DNA of 64,000 nt from the human T2T-CHM13v2.0 reference genome, Homo sapiens: assembly GCF_009914755.1 (NCBI RefSeq), contig NC_060939.1; one strand, 5' to 3'. Positions 9,741 to 62,081 of the stretch are shown piece after piece (the first letter of the stretch is position 1; each line of letters begins with the position of its first letter). A program made the position numbers and the translations under genes. Under the pieces are notes generated by a model. That model had not been told where the DNA came from. It saw nothing but the letters and a program-made list of their open reading frames with translations, and ran no database searches.

Positions 9741-13048
<3,308 letters not shown>

Positions 13049-18302: not shown

Positions 18303-18344
18303 CTCACACCATATACAAAAATCATTTCCAGATGGATTAAAGAG
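18303..18344 (-). CDS. NTRK3: NTRK3 alternative cassette exon, 14-aa kinase insert [14 protein letters not shown] (42 nt, phase 0/0)
   Basis: Reverse complement reads ttttgttttttatgtttag|CTC TTT AAT CCA TCT GGA AAT GAT TTT TGT ATA TGG TGT GAG|gtaggt. Matches the known TrkC 14-aa insert placed between DYYR and VGGHTML. Confidence 0.95.
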
Positions 18345-37079: not shown

Positions 37080-39594
37080 ACAATAAGCCTTTTAATATGG
37101 GCCTTTGGGATCTCTCTGAATCTTTTTTCTTAGGTTCATCTCACCCCTGAAATCCCGGCGTACTGCTGTAAAGGATGCATCTATGACCAAGTCTCTAAGC
37201 AGATTCCCAGACCGAGGCACACTCATGACCAGGTGCCCTTGCAGACTTGTGTCTAAGGCATGGGTATTATTCTTTTAAGCTTCAGCTAAGCCCTTCTGGA
37301 ATTAAGACATATCTTGTATGTGTGAGTGGCAGGGCGGCCCATATGTAACCAGAAAAAGAATGACTATCCTTGTCAGTTTGAAATATAACCAGACACTTCT
37401 CATCTTTACCCTGATTCCCAGCTGGGACTCCACAGAGCACACATATGCAGAAGAGAGAAGCCAACTGTGTTGAGATGCGTTAATATTTTAGAAGAAAAGC
37501 TAATTTGCTTGCTTATTTGTTTCTACCAGAGGGAGAACTCAGATAAGTGAAAGTGGAGAATCCTATGGAGGAAGATGAATGATGCTTTCCTCCTCAGCCC
37601 TCAAGTATCAAAATGACGGGGGAAACTAGACAAGGGTCCCTAAAAGCAGTAAAGAACCAAAACTTGATGAGGTAACCCTACCCAACAGTTAGAAGACCAC
37701 AGCGAGGGACATCCCAGTGCTTGGAGTATATTTCTGTGATGGTAACAATGTAATGAAAAAGAAAATCCTTGCCAAATGACAAGAGTATGGCTTCTCTCTA
37801 CCCCTATGACACATGTTGTGAAACTAAGAAACATTGTCTTGACATGCATAGAGACCCTGGGATAAATATGCTCTAAAACTCCAAGGAAAGTATAGCATCA
37901 CAGGTAGAAAATCTTCTACTTTATCACAAAAAGAAAACTGGAGAGGGTTATTGGCATCCCAAAGTAATTCTTTACTTTGTTGTAGCAGGTCTCTCTTCCG
38001 CATCTAAATGGTGATTTGCTTGAAACATAACCTTATCAGGAGGTTACCATATTATGCGTAAAACAACAGGTTACCTATTTGTTTTCTGGGAAATATATGA
38101 AAGTATACCACAAATAAATGCAACATTACACAGTGATATTTAGGTTAAATATAACCATCATATCTGAGATGTGGTCCAGAGACATCCTGTTTCTTGCTAA
38201 TAGCATCCTAAGACTGGATGAGGTCAGTCTGTGGATTCCATTCACAAAAGACAGACAGGAAATTTAGGATTATCTTCAAACTCAACTCTTCGCTCAAACC
38301 CCTGTCGAAAAACCTTTGTTCAGTCTCAGCACTCTGCATGCATTCTCCCCACCTCTATTATCTATACATAGACACCATGCATGGTCCCTCCTTCCAACGT
38401 GCGTGAGCCCCAGGAACACTGACTCACTGAAGTTAAGCCTCCACCTCAGCCGAGGATGGAAGCCACACAGGAAGATTTACTCTCATGCCCCCAAAATTTC
38501 CCATGCCCATCCCCATTTCCAGTGACAACACTCAAAAAACAAAGCAGCAGAAGTTGCTGTGCCTTCATGCGCAATCAGCAAAGACATGGACAACCACCCC
38601 AACACATCTACTGCTCCTGATCCAGCCATGCAAATCAGCCCACACATGGGACATTCGGGTCACCCAGTGAGTCCTTTTCTTACTTCCACTTCCTGCCAAC
38701 TGGTATCTGTGGAAAGATGCTGAGGCTAACTGATAAAGGCAGAATTTCAGACATAATTCAACCTGGATTTAAATCCTGGCTCCACTATTTTCTATTTCTG
38801 AGCTTAAACATCAGTGTTCTCATCCTCAAAGTGGAACTATAATAATGTCTTCATGAGAACAGAATAAATTAAACAAATTAACTTACTCAAAGCCCCTATC
38901 AAGGTGCCTGGCTAGAGCAGGTGTTCAGCAGCTGTAAGCTGCCCTTCCGTTACCCCACAGAAAGGCAGATGGGAGAAGGAAGGGCCTTAAGATGCTCTGA
39001 ATGGCCAGCACAAGTCAGAGATTAAGGGACTTTCTACAAAGATGCTCCCCAAATAGATGAATCCACAGCCATGTTCACTTTCTGATGCCGTCTCAGTGGT
39101 GTCAGAGGGAGATGAAACCCGTGCTGACCATCAAGCAGACAAGGTATCCTTCCAGTGCCACAGCCACCTGGTTTTCTCTCTTTGCTTTCTGTCATTATGA
39201 AGTTTGTGAGTATTTCTTTATTTGGACTCAGAATTTTCAGATACGATTTCATCCATACAGTAAGTTTTAGCTGAGTCATGAAAGCCCTCCTTGGAGAAAC
39301 TAAATAAACTAAAATATTTCGTATTCTTTAAGCAATGCGATTGCTTTGACGTCCCTACCTAAACTACACACACACACAACACTAACTACCACCACCAACA
39401 CCACCACTATTACTACCACCAAGTACTTCTTTTTCTCCTCTCTGCTTTCCTTCTCTCTTAAGAACCTATCACTCTTAATTTGCTATATACTTTACTTTAT
39501 CTTTATTTTTTTATCTCCCTCAGTAAGGGCAGCGATTTTTGTCTGTTTTACTCACAGTTGTATCACTGGCACCAACAATAACTCAGGATACATG

Positions 39595-39727
39595 GATAAA
39601 ATGACTGTATGCCCCAATTTACCAAGAAAGGTCTAAATTTATGCCTGTAGCTCCTATTTAATTATTAATAACTTCCCTTTTCATTCTCAGAAGGGTCCAA
39701 CTTTAGACAATCAAACATACACAGTTG
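39595..39727. mobile_element. MER94-like hAT MITE
   Basis: tttatgcctgtagctcctatttaattattaataacttcccttttcattctcagaagggtccaactttagacaat resembles the recalled MER94 core. Confidence 0.5.
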
Positions 39728-41112
39728 ATTAATATTAAATGTTTGTTGAAATTAATTAATAAATTTGACCAATTTGATATTTTAATGCAACCTGTCAGTT
39801 CCTAAAACCAAGAGTTTGAACCCGATGCGACTGAAATACATACAATATTTTAAAAGCATGAGAAGAGATTGATTAATCTTCTATAATGGTTCTGCTTGCA
39901 AAATTCTCATAAGGCTGCCAAGCATGTTTGTTCTGAAATACCCTAGCTATACACACTTGTTAGTACTGAAAATCTTAAACTTTCATGCTGTTGTTAGGAG
40001 CAGTGTCAAGAAGAGAAACCTATAAAACTGATCCTGAGAGAACCTGGGAGGTTATGCTTAATTTACCTCCCTAACCAAATTATGAGAGAAATGAATGAAA
40101 CTGTAAAAGCCTTCCTTCCCATGCACCTGCCCATAAGACTGCAGTATCAGGATAATACTGTATATTAGAAACCAGAAGCTTCTCACTTCAAAACTGACTT
40201 AACTACCGCACGCCCTGTCAGTGTTAGGAAGCAGCCTCTGGCCTGTGGAAAGCCTCTCAAGATGGCAAGCAGAACTTGTGTCTTCTTAGTCTGGGATGGA
40301 TCTTTAAGGCTGAGTAGGTGAATTCTGTGGTTCTGTTTTCCCAAGTGAACTGTTTCCCAAATAGAAGAAAAAAGCCCCCAAGCAAAAAGTGGAAGGAAGT
40401 CATCCAATACAGTCTGATGATCAAGGTAAGACAGATGGAACTTCGACTGACTCTGCAGTATGTCCATCTCCCTGCCAGAAATTACCATAGAAATTAAAAT
40501 GGGGAGGGCAAAAGCCTCCCTGCAAGCACTGGGGGATCTGACTCAGTCACAGAGGATCTGTAGTGACCATCCTGAGCATCAGGTCTGTTAGACCACGCTT
40601 CATCTGAGGTCAATGGGGAGACCTCCAGTTCTTAGACCCTCTACTCTGTGCAATTAGGGCATTCTTATTTCCTTACAGGGAGTCTCCTATGGAGTGTAAG
40701 CACCCAAAGTGTACTCAAAACTCAAGGTCACACCTCCTGAAATGCAAGAAAGCAGCCAAACCACTCGTCCATGCAGAGCCTTCAGCCTCCACCACACGCA
40801 CAGGTCTGGACAGAAGCCCTGGCAGCCATGTGAACTCCAGCGGCTCTCCCGGCTGTGCACCTAATTTTAGCAGATTATGGCCCGCCACCCCCCACCATGC
40901 TGTCTCCCCATGAGACATCCCAAGCACATCAATGGCTTTGGCAGGAAACTTCCATGGAAGTTAAATGATGCTCCACGGTGGGAGGCAAGGAAAAAGAGGT
41001 TGGAAGCAGGCCCCAGCCCATGGAAGTGCCTCTCCAAAGCCTGCAAGCTGTCTGTCTGTGTGTGGACTGCCCTGCCCAGCCCCCTGGCCCCAGAAATCAA
41101 ATCCAGACTCAC

Positions 41113-41187
41113 TGTGGAAGCTGCCGTTGCTGCTAGCCTCTGCCGCTGCCACACCACGCTGAACGGGCCCTTCTGGCATGGCCCTTC
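41113..41187 (-). CDS. NTRK3: NTRK3 alternative cassette exon, 25-aa kinase insert EGPCQKGPFSVVWQRQRLAATAAST (75 nt, phase 0/0)
   Basis: Acceptor cattcactgtcag|GAA preceded by a ~80-nt CU-rich tract; consensus donor ACA|gtgagt; 25 codons with no stop. Closely resembles the rat TrkC 25-aa insert as recalled (EGPCQKGPFNVSWQQQRLAASAAST). Confidence 0.88.
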
Positions 41188-42235
41188 CTGACAGTGAATG
41201 AGGGGAGAGAGTGGGAAGGGGGAGAGAGAAGAAAAGGGATGAAGGGAGAGGAAGGAAGCATGGAAGGATGAAAGGAGGAGCATGAGGAAAGCAGGGGGAT
41301 CTTTAACTGAATGGCGTGTCTCTCCTGGGCAGGGCCTCAAACATTTGTCCTGCATCATTAGGGAGGACAGCGGAAGACCGCAGCAACCCACCTTCAAGGC
41401 CCTTACTCTGGAGTCCGCCCAGAAACACAAGGCACTCGGGGCTCCACCAGCACATCATGACACCACTCCCAGCACATGACACCCAGCTGTCTTCCTCTGT
41501 GGGACATGAAGACGCAATGGGCTTCCCTCCACGAGCTTGGTTCTACTCCCAGCAGGAGCCTCCCAGCCAACCTACTGCTTGGAGAGGAAGTGGGTTCTAT
41601 CTAGAATTTTCAGCCCCTTAGGTCAAAGAAACAGCGCTTTCTCCAAAGCTTCTGAGAGAATTATTGCTCTTAGTGTGTCCCGCAGAAAATCCCTGAATTC
41701 ACCACTGCTTTTAGGGCTACCCAGATTCCCTCTCCTTTCCTTCCTGATTTAGAAAGGTTAACTCACTGAATGTCACCACCATGGAGCCTCAGCCCTCCTC
41801 CTCCTTGCTGTCCATGGAGTTAACATTTGTGTTCCCCCTCACCACTCAGGAAAAAAGCTCCTAAGCAAGGCCTTTCCCTTGAAAGGGCTCCTGAGAAGTG
41901 AGAGGAGGGGGGTGCATGAGGAGGGACTCACAGTAACTTAGCAATGGCATTTCTCAAGTGCTTCCAAGTCAAGGGCTGTGTGCAAGAGACAAGAGACACA
42001 GTCTCTGCTCTCAATTGAGTCAGAGGCAGAGAAGCAGCACTGGAATGACCTGGAGGAGAGGCAGATTCATGAAGTAACATGTCCCTGTGCACAAACTCAT
42101 AGGGTGAGGCTGAAAAGACCATCCAGTGAAGACAATGAAATGGGGATTGCTGAGTGCTGATGGCAGGGAGGGACGAACAGAAAGAAAGAAGACGGAGATG
42201 AAAGAAAGGACAGATGGGCAGTTGGGAAGAGAAGG

Positions 42236-42626
42236 TGTGATGGACTGAACTGTGTGCCCCCCAACACATGCTCATTATGGGGAAGTCCTAACCCCAAGTT
42301 CTTCAGAATATGACTGTATTTGGAGAGAGAGCCTTAAATGAGGTAACTAAGGTTCAATGGGGTCTGTAGGGTGGGCCCTAATCCAATAGGACTGGGGTCC
42401 TTATAAGAAGAGATTAGGACACAAACCACACAGACGGATGACCATGTGGGGACACAGTGAGCAGGCAGCCATGTGCAAGACAAAGAGCGAGGCCTCTGAA
42501 TGAATGAACCCTGTTGGCACCTTGGTCTTGAACTTCCAGCCTCCAGAGCAGTGAGAAAATCAGATTCTGTTGTTGAAGCCCCCAGTCTGTGGAGCACTGC
42601 TATGGCAGCCCGAACAAATGAACACA
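42236..42626 (+). mobile_element. MaLR solo LTR (MLT1B-like)
   Basis: tgtgatggactgaactgtgtgcccc...gggtgggccctaatccaata...tatggcagcccgaacaaatgaacaca; near 5-bp TSD gaagg/gaggg. Confidence 0.85.
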
Positions 42627-45552
42627 GAGGGCCTCATGCAAAGGTGGAAATAAGCAACTGGCGCTGGGCCACCGGGGACAGACTGGCTGGGATGGAGCCA
42701 AGGGGGCTTCTTGTGGAAGGTCAGGAAGGAGACTGGCAGGGGCTTCAGGACCCAGTAGGCCAGGGCAAGAAATTTATATTTTGGTGAAATGAAGATTTAC
42801 TCACACAAGGCTCCAAAAACACAGGAGGGATGAGGAAGTTCGAGGAGCCCTGGGGGAAGAGCTCCAAGCCTGAAGGTGTGTGCGTGGATTCAGGTTTTGG
42901 ACTGACCAGGCATGGACCCGGGCAGCTCCTGCCAACGTGCAAAGAAAAAGTGGCACTGAGGTGCTATAAGGAAAGACATAGCAGGCTGGTGATAAAGAGA
43001 CAGGTTCAGAAATGGCTCCCCTTTGGGAAGCTCCCAAGAGAGTTTTCACGGATGCTAACGGTTGCTGAGGTGCTAGCACTCAGAGAAGCAGGAGGAGGCC
43101 ATGGTGAGTTTTATTTAAAACATGCCGTGTTTCAGTCTCCAGTGAACTCTCCAGGGGAGGCTTACAGATTAAGCAATCAAAGAGAGAAGAAGTGGAGGCT
43201 GCAAATGTAAATTTCAAACAGATTCTGTGTAAAAGTAAAAAGGGGTTATAACCATGTGAGTGCATGAGGTTTGCAAAGCAGATGTCTAAAATAGCAGCAC
43301 CCAAACTTAAAATGAGAGGAAGGAGAGAAACCAATGGAGCAGGGAAAGAATGACCAGGAATGGTTATAACTTGTGGAACAAAGCATAACTGAGGCATTCA
43401 ACAAGAATACTATGCATCACTGGCAGTTGCAGGGGGTGCAGGGGAAAGGGTAAATTATTAATAATGTCATTCAACAATAGTTCAGGAAGGGTTAGACTTG
43501 AAGTAAGAAATTTAAATTTGGTCGTGAGAGATAATTAGTGACCCCAAAACTGCAGATTCAATTCAGTGGTAAGATCAGAAGCCCAAAAAATTAAGACAGA
43601 AGATGAAAAGTACTTATTTCAATATTCAGGCAAAGTTAGAAGGGATAGAAAGGTCAAATGAAGATTTTTCTTTAATGTAGGATAGATTGTGGATTTTTAG
43701 AGTTGAAAGGAGGGAGAAATGCCTCAAGAAAGCCTTCAGAGCAAGATAAACACAGTCACAGGGAGAGACAAGAGACAGGGCAAGTGACAGGTATTGAGGT
43801 ATGAGCGAAGTGGGAAAGGATTCAGGCTGTGAATGTGTAGATATGCAGAGGGTGAATTTGGCTTAATATTTGATAGCATCATGAAAATATATACTTGACA
43901 CAGTTCCTTGCACGTACATAATTATGAGTCCTTAAATTGCTCTACCACTTTGCACTTATCTAAGCAATCTCTGTTGTAGAGTTGGCTTTTAGGATCTCAG
44001 AATTAGAGAAAAGCAAAACTTTGAGATCATCTTCTGAAACCTCATGTCCAGCACAGGCATCTGTATAATGTGGTTCTAAGGATTTTCTAGAAACCCAATG
44101 GGGATGGAGAACCCACTATCTTGTAGGACGGTCTGTTCCATTTTCACACAATAAGGGTAACTTCCTGCAGCACTGTGCTTCACCACCCTCAGGTGTCAAC
44201 TATCTCTAGCGTTTTCCAGTCTTGCCACCCCTGTGGGTGAGGAACACATTGCAGAGCCCACTCATTGCACCAAAATAATGGAGGACAACCCTTGCATACA
44301 TCTCTGTACTGAAACCTGGCTTTGTGATCTCTGATTGTTCCAAATTAGGGTCCTTGAGCATCATCCCAGATCAGTCATTCGCTGAGAAGAACACCTGTCT
44401 CCTGGTTTATGTCATTTAATGAACATTTATGAAATGTCTACCATATATCATGTATAGTCCTAGGTACAAGGGTTATATAATCAGTGAAATAAGGCATGAA
44501 TACTGCCCTTAAAGAACTTCTAAGCTACTGTGAATGATTATGTGTCAATCAAAGTTCTTGAGAATACATTTTCACAATAAACATTAAAACAATTACTTCT
44601 TGCAACACATTTCAAGGCAATAGGACAATACTCCTCAACTCTGAGCACCACCTCCCTTGCTTCTAATATTCCTTCCTCGCCCTTCAGTTTCACTGAATCT
44701 GTGTTACATTTTACAGACTACAATCACCTCAAATCACGTTGCTGCTGGTTGCTTTAAGATTACATTGGAGAGCCGAAAATCTCTAAATTAAATCATCTTT
44801 GCTTGCTGCGTTGACTAGGCTTGGGTCATCCTGTTTTCCTCCTTTGCCTTGAATGGCCTTGCCACAAAGCCTTATTAGAAAAATAGATCATGGAACTCAA
44901 TTATTACAAGCTCACACTTCTACTTAACCTCATGGAGACTGTGCTGTATTGGTGTGCTCTTTAAACATTCTATTCACAAGTAAACTCTCATCCCTTGAAA
45001 AACCTAACTTAACCAGAACACCAAACCCAATTCCACCCCTCATTTATTGTACAGTCTGGGGAATGATCACTAATCTCTCTGAGCTTTAATTTACTTGTCT
45101 GTAAATAGGGAGAATCATGCCAGCCCATTGACCTCATAGCACTTTGATGGTGGTTAGAGAGGAGCACTGAATTCACAGGAAGGGAGAAGAATGTCCTTGT
45201 CTTCACTCTACCACTAACTAGGTGTGTGATCTTGAGGGACATCTGCTCTCTCTCTCTCTCTCTCTCTGGCTGGCATTCAATGTATTCACCTGTCAAATAA
45301 GTGGGTTTGAAAGATGACCTCCAACTTCATTTCTAGTCAGGATTTCACAAGATTGCCAGTGTAGATGCTTACCCAAATTTCATCCAGACGTTTATCAAGG
45401 TCTCTCATAGAATACTTACAAAACAGTTGGGTGGAGTAATAAAAATGCATAGACCATATCCAGAGAATGTTGATAATTGAATCAACGTCTGCTTGGGAGC
45501 AGAACTCTAGCGGCAAACCCTGATCTTGGGCTGTTCAACTTTTCAAAAAGTA

Positions 45553-61837: not shown

Positions 61838-62081
61838 CCTGTAATAATCCGTGCTGTAGACATCTCTGGACATGCCGAAGTCCCCAATCTTCACTAGCAG
61901 ATTCGCTCCAACCAGGCAGTTCCTGGTGGCCAGGTCTCGGTGCACAAAGTGCTGGGAGGCCAGGTACACCATACCCGAGGCGATCTGACTGGCAATGTGG
62001 AGCATTTGGGAGAGCCCCAGCTCACCCTTGGCCTGGCGTGGCTGTCCATCCACAAGGATCATTGCATCTGGCCCATGGGCC
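61838..62081 (-). CDS. NTRK3: NTRK3/TrkC kinase-domain exon (244 nt): [81 protein letters not shown]
   Basis: Catalytic-loop [11 protein letters not shown] and Trk activation-loop YSTDYY motifs. Acceptor ctcttgcag|G (AG at 62083-62082) after a pyrimidine tract; donor AGG|gtaaag (GT at 61837-61836). The [15 protein letters not shown] segment is TrkC-type rather than TrkA/TrkB. Confidence 0.98.

What the first reader, a model, noticed from the sequence alone, without database searches (positions are those of the whole stretch)
41113..41187. Intact copy of the 25-aa TrkC kinase-insert exon hidden mid-intron
Seen: a 75-nt stop-free phase-0 exon, EGPCQKGPFSVVWQRQRLAATAAST, with a consensus donor (gtgagt), a good acceptor and 4 retained CpGs in CpG-poor intron. 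It lies inside ORF 40867-41430, which the track shows only as one long ORF. Known (recalled): rat and chicken TrkC have a 25-aa insert and rat has a 39-aa (25+14) form, while human TrkC is usually described with only the 14-aa insert. Inference: this genome can make K25 and K39 isoforms that may be under-annotated.
Basis: partly seen in the sequence, partly recalled or inferred. Interest (0 to 1): 0.8.

Follow-up and report, generated by a model that had tools for sequence, protein, structure and literature searches.

The report
Known TrkC 25-residue kinase-insert exon
This is a real, intact and conserved alternative exon of the human NTRK3 (TrkC) gene that adds 25 residues to the kinase activation loop, but it is already in the RefSeq annotation, so the main claim is ordinary; the unexpected part is a single look-alike exon cassette in an unrelated gene on chromosome 2.

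Summary
On the minus strand, 41187..41113 is a 75-nt, stop-free, phase 0-0 exon, cag|GAAGGG...TCCACA|gtgagt. It encodes EGPCQKGPFSVVWQRQRLAATAAST. It lies between the NTRK3 exon ending ...YSTDYYR and the exon starting [11 protein letters not shown], that is between positions 159 and 162 of the Pfam tyrosine-kinase profile. The upstream exon is 81/81 identical to solved TrkC kinase chains. Eleven non-human, unnamed ORFs carry the orthologous exon at 17-22 of 25 identical residues; 8 keep 25 codons and 3 are five codons shorter.

The claim that it is hidden or under-annotated fails. I could not test expression in human tissue. The human papers I saw describe only the 14-residue insert (passages of PMC3019150 and PMC10486691).

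Side finding: the whole cassette has exactly one paralogue in this genome, at C2:178827111-178827185 (+). It is also 75 nt with the same splice sites and lies 39 kb upstream of oxysterol-binding-domain exons. The gene is probably OSBPL6 (name recalled). That exon is also conserved in other genomes.

The parts
41113..41187 (-). K25 cassette exon of NTRK3: 75 nt, 25 codons, phase 0-0
   Evidence: Searches give the sequence, frame and translation. The hub RefSeq table lists it as an exon of other NTRK3 transcripts. Orthologous ORFs appear.
41107..41112 (-). Donor site gtgagt, a full match to GTRAGT; the last exon bases are ACA
   Evidence: The residues VS follow the exon in 11 of 11 non-human K25-lineage ORFs, which fits a kept GTGAGT-like donor but does not prove it.
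41188..41200 (-). Acceptor block cattcactgtcag
   Evidence: It is 12/13 identical to the chr2 paralogue. It is translated as IHCQ in 5 of 11 non-human K25-lineage ORFs and in 5 of the 6 chr2-lineage ORFs that reach it; the others vary (VHGQ, GHGQ, IHGQ, VRCQ, VHCQ).
41188..41302 (-). AG-exclusion zone of 113 nt, 86% pyrimidine, with CU-rich and YCAY motifs
   Evidence: The zones of the other four coding exons in the window are 38-61 nt.
41300..41311 (-). Conserved block ttcagttaaaga at the 5' edge of the AG-exclusion zone; a candidate distal branch-point region (inference)
   Evidence: TTCAGTTAAA is 10/10 identical to the chr2 module.
41008..41106 (-). Downstream intron stretch conserved in some genomes; a possible splicing-control region (inference)
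   Evidence: the 35 residues translated after the exon (which include the donor) are 29/35, 27/33 aligned and 25/35 identical in P0009, P0010 and P0017. In the other eight ORFs the identical residues number 8-18.
61838..62081 (-). Upstream constitutive kinase exon ending ...[15 protein letters not shown]
   Evidence: Pfam PK_Tyr_Ser-Thr profile positions 94-159; 81/81 identical to PDB 3v5q, 4ymj and 6kzc (NT-3 growth factor receptor).
18303..18344 (-). K14 cassette exon, 42 nt, [14 protein letters not shown]; included in the selected transcript NM_001012338.3
   Evidence: and the hub table.
12890..13048 (-). Downstream constitutive kinase exon starting [16 protein letters not shown]
   Evidence: Pfam profile positions 162-212.

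Best explanation
41113-41187 (minus strand) is the human orthologue of the TrkC 25-residue kinase-insert cassette exon. It is an old, conserved, optional exon. When spliced in between the exon ending YSTDYYR and the exon starting VGGHTM, it places 25 residues directly after the activation-loop tyrosines. When the 14-residue exon follows it, the insert is 39 residues. By analogy with published work on insert-bearing TrkC, the insert should leave the receptor able to bind NT-3 and autophosphorylate but should weaken coupling to PLC-gamma, Shc, PI3K and MAPK. That would give a receptor with attenuated or altered output. A long pyrimidine-rich AG-exclusion zone, a conserved upstream block and a conserved downstream intron suggest tightly regulated, usually low, inclusion. 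The anatomy, the conservation and the annotation status are shown. The signalling effect and the regulation are inferred.
For: Exon anatomy and frame. Position in the kinase: Pfam profile 159|162, and 81/81 identity of the flanking exon to solved TrkC kinase chains. Tyr709/710 are named as activation-loop autophosphorylation sites in PMC11381775 (passage). Exon-like features are rare by chance: 2 candidates in 64 kb under the strict scan. Conservation: 11 non-human K25-lineage ORFs were found in two protein libraries. All are open across the exon; 8 of 11 have 25 codons and 3 of 11 have a five-codon-shorter in-frame form. They share 17-22 of 25 residues with human. In 8 of 11 the exon is much better kept than the translated downstream intron. 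Annotation: the hub RefSeq table lists the exon. Function of the inserts: a PMC6859819 passage says insertion into the TRKC kinase domain modifies substrate specificity and impairs differentiation. [quoted passage not shown] A PMC3760877 passage names TrkC-14, -25 and -39. The titles of Guiton 1995, Tsoulfas 1996 and Garner & Large 1994 were seen only in reference lists.
Against: There is no expression evidence for human. The papers I could read on human NTRK3 mention only the 14-aa insert. Human differs from all 11 other ORFs at residue 21 (T against P) and at residue 12 (V against S in 8 and P in 3). In the three ORFs with the best-kept downstream flanks (P0009, P0010, P0017) the exon is no better conserved than the downstream intron: 88/80/68% against 83/82/71% of aligned residues. 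Protein-level constraint on the human branch is therefore not shown. ORFs were found only where the frame is open, so broken copies would be missed. No DNA of orthologues was available, so there is no dN/dS. The functional data in print concern rat, chicken or the 14-aa insert, not human K25.
Confidence: 0.85

Rival explanations
1. Relic exon. The exon is intact by descent and was functional in the ancestor, but it is no longer, or hardly ever, spliced into human NTRK3 mRNA. On this reading the RefSeq models that contain it are predictions.
For: Human-specific residues occur at two otherwise fixed or nearly fixed positions. The exon is no better conserved than the adjacent intron in the three ORFs with the best-kept downstream flanks. 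Passages on human NTRK3 mention only the 14-aa insert. Three other genomes carry a shortened form, so the exon tolerates change.
Against: The frame, the acceptor, the perfect GTGAGT donor, the 113-nt AG-exclusion zone and the upstream conserved block are all intact. Four CpGs are retained. The exon is annotated in RefSeq (hub table).
Confidence: 0.12
2. Chance pseudoexon. The open stretch with splice-like ends arose by chance in a 43-kb intron.
For: Introns hold many AG and GT dinucleotides. One other exon-like stretch passes the same scan (42805-42963).
Against: Orthologous ORFs in 11 other genomes have a conserved frame and ends. The position is exactly at the known TrkC insertion site. The exon is in the RefSeq annotation. 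A conserved paralogous cassette exists on chr2.
Confidence: 0.02

Closest known systems
Rat TrkC 25-aa kinase-insert isoform (TrkC-25; ki25/K3 in the 1993 papers) and the avian TrkC kinase insertion
   Same: The insertion site after YSTDYYR, the 25-residue length and the combination with the 14-aa exon to give 39 residues are the same. TrkC-14, -25 and -39 are named in PMC3760877 (passage).
   Different: I could not align to the rat or chicken sequences: Lamballe 1993 and Shelton 1995 are not held, and no named vertebrate proteins turned up in the libraries. Orthology rests on position and on unnamed ORFs. Which species carry it (rat, chicken) is recalled, apart from paper titles.
Human NTRK3 exon 16, the 14-aa kinase insert (NM_001012338)
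   Same: It uses the same insertion point, is also a phase 0-0 cassette and sits in the same intron system. Its published effect is weakened PI3K, MAPK and PLC-gamma signalling (PMC10486691 passage).
   Different: The exon is different (18303-18344) and its peptide is unrelated. It is well documented in human mRNA and in ETV6-NTRK3 fusions. K25 lies 22.8 kb upstream of it and has no human expression data in the papers I saw.
Alternative exons exapted from ancient mobile elements (for example the LF-SINE-derived PCBP2 exon; recalled, not checked here)
   Same: This is a possible analogy for the two-copy cassette in NTRK3 and on chr2: a short module with splice signals kept in unrelated genes.
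   Different: Only two copies were found. No transposon hallmarks were looked for and no repeat library was available. Direct copying of a cassette between the two genes is equally possible.

Membership tests
TrkC kinase-insert cassette exons (14, 25 and 39-aa isoforms) | Lies in the NTRK3 intron between the exon ending YSTDYYR and the exon starting [11 protein letters not shown], on the gene strand | tested here: met
   hub gene table.
TrkC kinase-insert cassette exons (14, 25 and 39-aa isoforms) | 25 codons, phase 0-0, no stop, in frame alone and together with the 14-aa exon | tested here: met
TrkC kinase-insert cassette exons (14, 25 and 39-aa isoforms) | Usable splice signals | tested here: met
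   The acceptor is cag with 85% pyrimidines at -23..-4 and the donor is gtgagt. This is judged by consensus only; no quantitative splice-site scoring was run.
TrkC kinase-insert cassette exons (14, 25 and 39-aa isoforms) | Sequence homology with the published rat and chicken 25-aa inserts | tested here: inconclusive
   Eleven unnamed non-human ORFs carry the orthologous exon at 17-22 of 25 identical residues. The named rat and chicken sequences could not be obtained.
TrkC kinase-insert cassette exons (14, 25 and 39-aa isoforms) | Inclusion in mature human mRNA | not testable with these tools
   The only evidence is the RefSeq listing in the hub table. No RNA-seq or EST data were available.
TrkC kinase-insert cassette exons (14, 25 and 39-aa isoforms) | The insert impairs downstream signalling | not testable with these tools
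   Literature only, for other inserts or species.
Exapted mobile-element exon (considered for the NTRK3 and chr2 pair) | Many dispersed copies, or a match to a known repeat consensus | tested here: not met
   The own-genome DNA searches found 2 matches each way. The protein search found 5 matches, of which 3 have E of 0.2 or more. No repeat library was available, and old copies may have decayed beyond detection.

The most novel reading that the evidence does not exclude
The K25 exon may be one of two surviving copies of a complete alternative-exon module. The module runs from an upstream TTCAGTTAAA block through a pyrimidine-rich AG-exclusion zone of about 105-113 nt, the CATTCACYGTCAG acceptor and a 75-nt open exon to a GTGAGT donor followed by TGGATTT. 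One copy sits in NTRK3 and the other in an oxysterol-binding-protein-related gene on chr2, probably OSBPL6. No copy was detected at the other OSBP-domain loci, nor anywhere else in the genome. This suggests that the module was copied between two unrelated genes, or was taken up twice from an extinct mobile element. It may still be read by the same splicing regulators, putting a related basic peptide (..KG.FS....RQRLAA..) into a kinase activation loop and into a lipid-transfer protein linker.
Probability: 0.35. Interest if true: 0.55.

Novelty: already known. Interest (0 to 1): 0.25.

Why it matters
For the finding as given there is little to add, because the exon is already in RefSeq. What stays open is whether human neurons use K25 or K39 TrkC. 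That matters for reading NTRK3 variants, for fusion-kinase isoforms and for TRK-inhibitor pharmacology, since an activation-loop insert changes signalling.

The side finding has more potential. A single paralogous cassette, splice signals included, sits in an unrelated brain-expressed gene family. It would be a clean example of a whole regulated exon moving between genes, and it gives a testable prediction of shared splicing control.

Tried and rejected
Papers. The search 'TrkC + kinase insert + 25 amino acid' found 0 papers. 'TrkC-25/K25/ki25/K3/-39' found 1 paper, PMC3760877. The hyphenated number terms gave nothing relevant. 'OSBPL6 + NTRK3 + alternative splicing + exon' found 0 papers. 'ORP6/OSBPL6 splice variant' gave no useful hits among the 12 listed. 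One search failed on a term that was too short. Shelton 1995 and Lamballe 1993 are not held. So I could not check what was reported for human 25/39-aa inserts, nor see the published insert sequences.

Orthologue DNA. The search for related loci in genome contigs matched 7 stretches, none confirmed. In viral contigs it gave 1 locus, L001. That locus matches only the low-complexity pyrimidine-tract translation (residues 11-44, 41%), so I rejected it as a relative. No dN/dS across species was therefore possible.

Protein libraries. The search for homologous proteins with 'near' lengths for K25 had no candidates. Of the 23 hits, 7 are long proteins (638-2932 aa) at 31-43% identity. I fetched 3 of them. 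They are repeat proteins matching a short GPFS.VW-like motif by chance. The other 4 were not fetched and were left out of all counts.

Other checks. Nei-Gojobori on K25 against the chr2 exon gave differences of 7/7/7 by codon position and dN/dS of about 0.87. There is no coding signature between the paralogues. Pfam PH_8 in the own genome gave no chr2 match, so the upstream part of the chr2 gene was not located. Rfam on 38000-45000 gave 0 matches. Pfam on the 25-aa peptide gave 0 families.

Full report
THE OBSERVATION

Read on the minus strand (the NTRK3 strand), window 41187..41113 is ...cattcactgtcag|GAAGGGCCATGCCAG...GCAGCTTCCACA|gtgagtctg. It is 75 nt, open only in frame 0, and encodes EGPCQKGPFSVVWQRQRLAATAAST. 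It holds 4 CpGs. CpG observed/expected is 0.51 in the exon against 0.21, 0.18 and 0.15 in the +-500, +-2000 and +-10000 nt flanks, and 0.16 for the window. The surrounding stop-to-stop ORF is 40867..41454.

WHERE IT SITS

- The annotated upstream exon 61838-62081 ends on a codon boundary with ...[15 protein letters not shown].
- The 42-nt exon 18303-18344 encodes [14 protein letters not shown].
- The next exon, 12890-13048, starts [16 protein letters not shown].
- All junctions are phase 0, so skipping both cassettes, including either one, or including both (25+14 = 39 residues, K25 first) keeps the frame.
- Pfam places the upstream exon at positions 94-159 and the downstream exon at 162-212 of PK_Tyr_Ser-Thr.
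- The upstream exon is 81/81 identical to solved NT-3 growth factor receptor kinase chains 3v5q, 4ymj and 6kzc.
- The insert therefore lands directly after the activation-loop YY motif. Tyr709/710 are named as autophosphorylation sites in a passage of PMC11381775.

IS IT MORE THAN CHANCE?

I ran a strict scan of the whole minus strand of the window. It required a YAG acceptor, at least 70% pyrimidine at -23..-4, a GTRAGT donor, 45-200 nt in multiples of three, and an open frame 0. It returns 2 candidates: this exon and 42805-42963. The scan is narrow, and K14's gtaggt donor would fail it.

The stronger argument is conservation. With a 45-residue in-frame stretch of the window as query, one library gave 4 hits. 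The representative library gave 23 hits at E of 0.001 or better.
- 7 of the 23 are long repeat proteins at 31-43% identity. I fetched 3 of them; they match a short GPFS.VW-like motif by chance. I set these 7 aside.
- The rest are read-through ORFs on unnamed contigs.
- 11 non-human ORFs belong to the NTRK3 lineage, judged by their downstream flank VS[LP].F..G..
- All 11 are open across the exon. 8 of 11 keep 25 codons. 3 of 11 (P0018, P0020, P0021) lack the first five codons but keep a CAG before the shortened exon.
- Identity to human is 17-22 of 25.

Caveats. ORF libraries only hold open frames, so broken copies cannot be seen. The species are unknown. No orthologue DNA could be fetched, so dN/dS across species was not possible.

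In the three ORFs with the best-kept downstream flanks, the exon is no better kept than the 35 residues translated from the downstream intron: 22/25 against 29/35, 20/25 against 27/33 aligned, and 17/25 against 25/35. In the other eight the exon is far better kept. Human also differs from all 11 at residue 21 (T, others P) and at residue 12 (V, others S or P). A conserved downstream intron is usual for regulated cassette exons (general knowledge). These numbers still leave room for relaxed constraint in the human lineage.

SPLICING ANATOMY

- The donor is a full GTRAGT match but lacks the usual G at -1.
- The acceptor is preceded by a 113-nt AG-exclusion zone that is 86% pyrimidine. The zones of the other four coding exons in the window are 38-61 nt.
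- The zone holds CU-rich and YCAY motifs.
- I infer a distal branch point and repressor-prone, tissue-restricted inclusion. This inference was not tested.

WHAT IS KNOWN

The hub's RefSeq table lists 41113-41187 among the exons of other NTRK3 transcripts.

In the papers I could read:
- PMC3760877 names TrkC-14, -25 and -39 isoforms.
- PMC3019150 says three human variants are well characterised and that only the 14-aa insert form carries an insert.
- PMC6859819 says kinase-domain insertion alters substrate specificity and impairs differentiation.

The primary 1993-1995 papers were not held. My statements that rat and chicken carry the 25-aa insert rest on recall and on titles seen in reference lists. 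Searches for K25-specific terms found 0 or 1 paper.

MECHANISM (INFERRED)

Inclusion adds 25 mostly polar and basic residues after YYR in the activation loop. By analogy with the published inserts, this should spare ligand binding and autophosphorylation but hinder adaptor and substrate docking. The result would be an attenuated receptor that could also dampen signalling in heterodimers.

SIDE FINDING: ONE PARALOGUE ON CHR2

- A DNA search of the window's own 3.1-Gb genome with the exon +-60 nt gave only two matches. One is the exon itself. The other is C2:178827081-178827197 (+), at 75% over 119 nt, E 2.2e-12.
- The reciprocal search returned only that chr2 site itself and the NTRK3 site (72% over 161 nt, E 3.3e-14).
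- The chr2 copy reads ccattcaccgtcag|75 nt|gtgagt and is open as EGPPAKGQFSTTRRRQRLAAAVATT.
- Ungapped identity over 13 acceptor bases, the exon and 5 donor bases is 71/93. The expected number of such matches in the genome is about 9e-13.
- The similarity runs over about 215 nt. It includes a 10/10 TTCAGTTAAA block at the far edge of each AG-exclusion zone (113 and 105 nt), a CTTTCATCCTYCCAT block inside the tract, and TGGATTT after the donor.
- Between the two exons, the differences fall 7/7/7 on the three codon positions and dN/dS is about 0.87. The likeness is therefore not explained by shared protein constraint.
- Oxysterol_BP domain exons lie on the same strand 39-50 kb downstream, at C2:178865930-178877265. 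The chr2 exon therefore very probably belongs to an OSBP-related gene. OSBPL6 is my recalled name for it. I also recall, unchecked, isoforms that differ by 25 residues.
- The chr2 exon is well conserved elsewhere. P0005, P0006, P0007 and P0027 share 23-25 of 25 residues with it, and P0008 is partial.
- Two more distant ORFs (P0015, P0022) read ...KGQFSAAWQRQRLA.... That is intermediate between the two human exons, as expected from common descent.
- No third copy was found; the protein search gave three further hits at E of 0.2 or more. None of the matches lies at the other OSBP-domain loci listed.
- Whether the chr2 exon is annotated and in frame was not tested. A Pfam PH_8 search found no chr2 exon.
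- I found no paper linking the two genes in this way. That search covers only the held library.

VERDICT

The exon is real, conserved and correctly identified, but it is already annotated, so the finding as stated is not new. What remains open is human usage. The two-copy cassette is the one item that may be new.

Noticed in passing
L003:1531-1605 (G000:C2:178827111-178827185, + strand); module about L003:1415-1620: This is the only paralogue of the K25 cassette in the genome. It is 75 nt with the same acceptor and donor and encodes EGPPAKGQFSTTRRRQRLAAAVATT. It lies 39 kb upstream of Oxysterol_BP domain exons on the same strand (probably OSBPL6, name recalled) and is conserved in unnamed ORFs P0005-P0008, P0015, P0022 and P0027.
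   Followed up: partly
P0018, P0020, P0021 (unnamed ORFs): Three K25-lineage ORFs lack the first five codons (EGPCQ) of the exon and read ...VRCQ|KGPVSVPW.... This looks like a 15-nt in-frame deletion between the two CAG-ending repeats, which would leave a 60-nt exon.
   Followed up: no
window 41113-41187, residues 12 and 21: Human has V12 and T21, whereas all 11 other K25-lineage ORFs have S or P at residue 12 and P at residue 21. These are lineage-specific changes of unknown age.
   Followed up: partly
window 42805-42963 (-): This is the second stretch that passes the strict exon-like scan. It is 159 nt with an open frame 0, a GTRAGT donor and 4 CpGs. It is not in the hub's exon list and is probably chance.
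   Followed up: no
P0004: This 209-aa database protein begins with 45 residues identical to the human intron/K25 read-through and then continues as a bacterial-type membrane protein (Pfam PF06541). It looks like a chimeric assembly of human and bacterial DNA.
   Followed up: no
window 41008-41106 (-): The roughly 100 nt of intron after the donor are kept about as well as the exon in P0009, P0010 and P0017. This may be an intronic splicing-control element.
   Followed up: partly
L001 (IMG/VR giant-virus contig): The only viral contigs match is to the translated pyrimidine tract (41% over 34 residues). It is a low-complexity false positive.
   Followed up: yes
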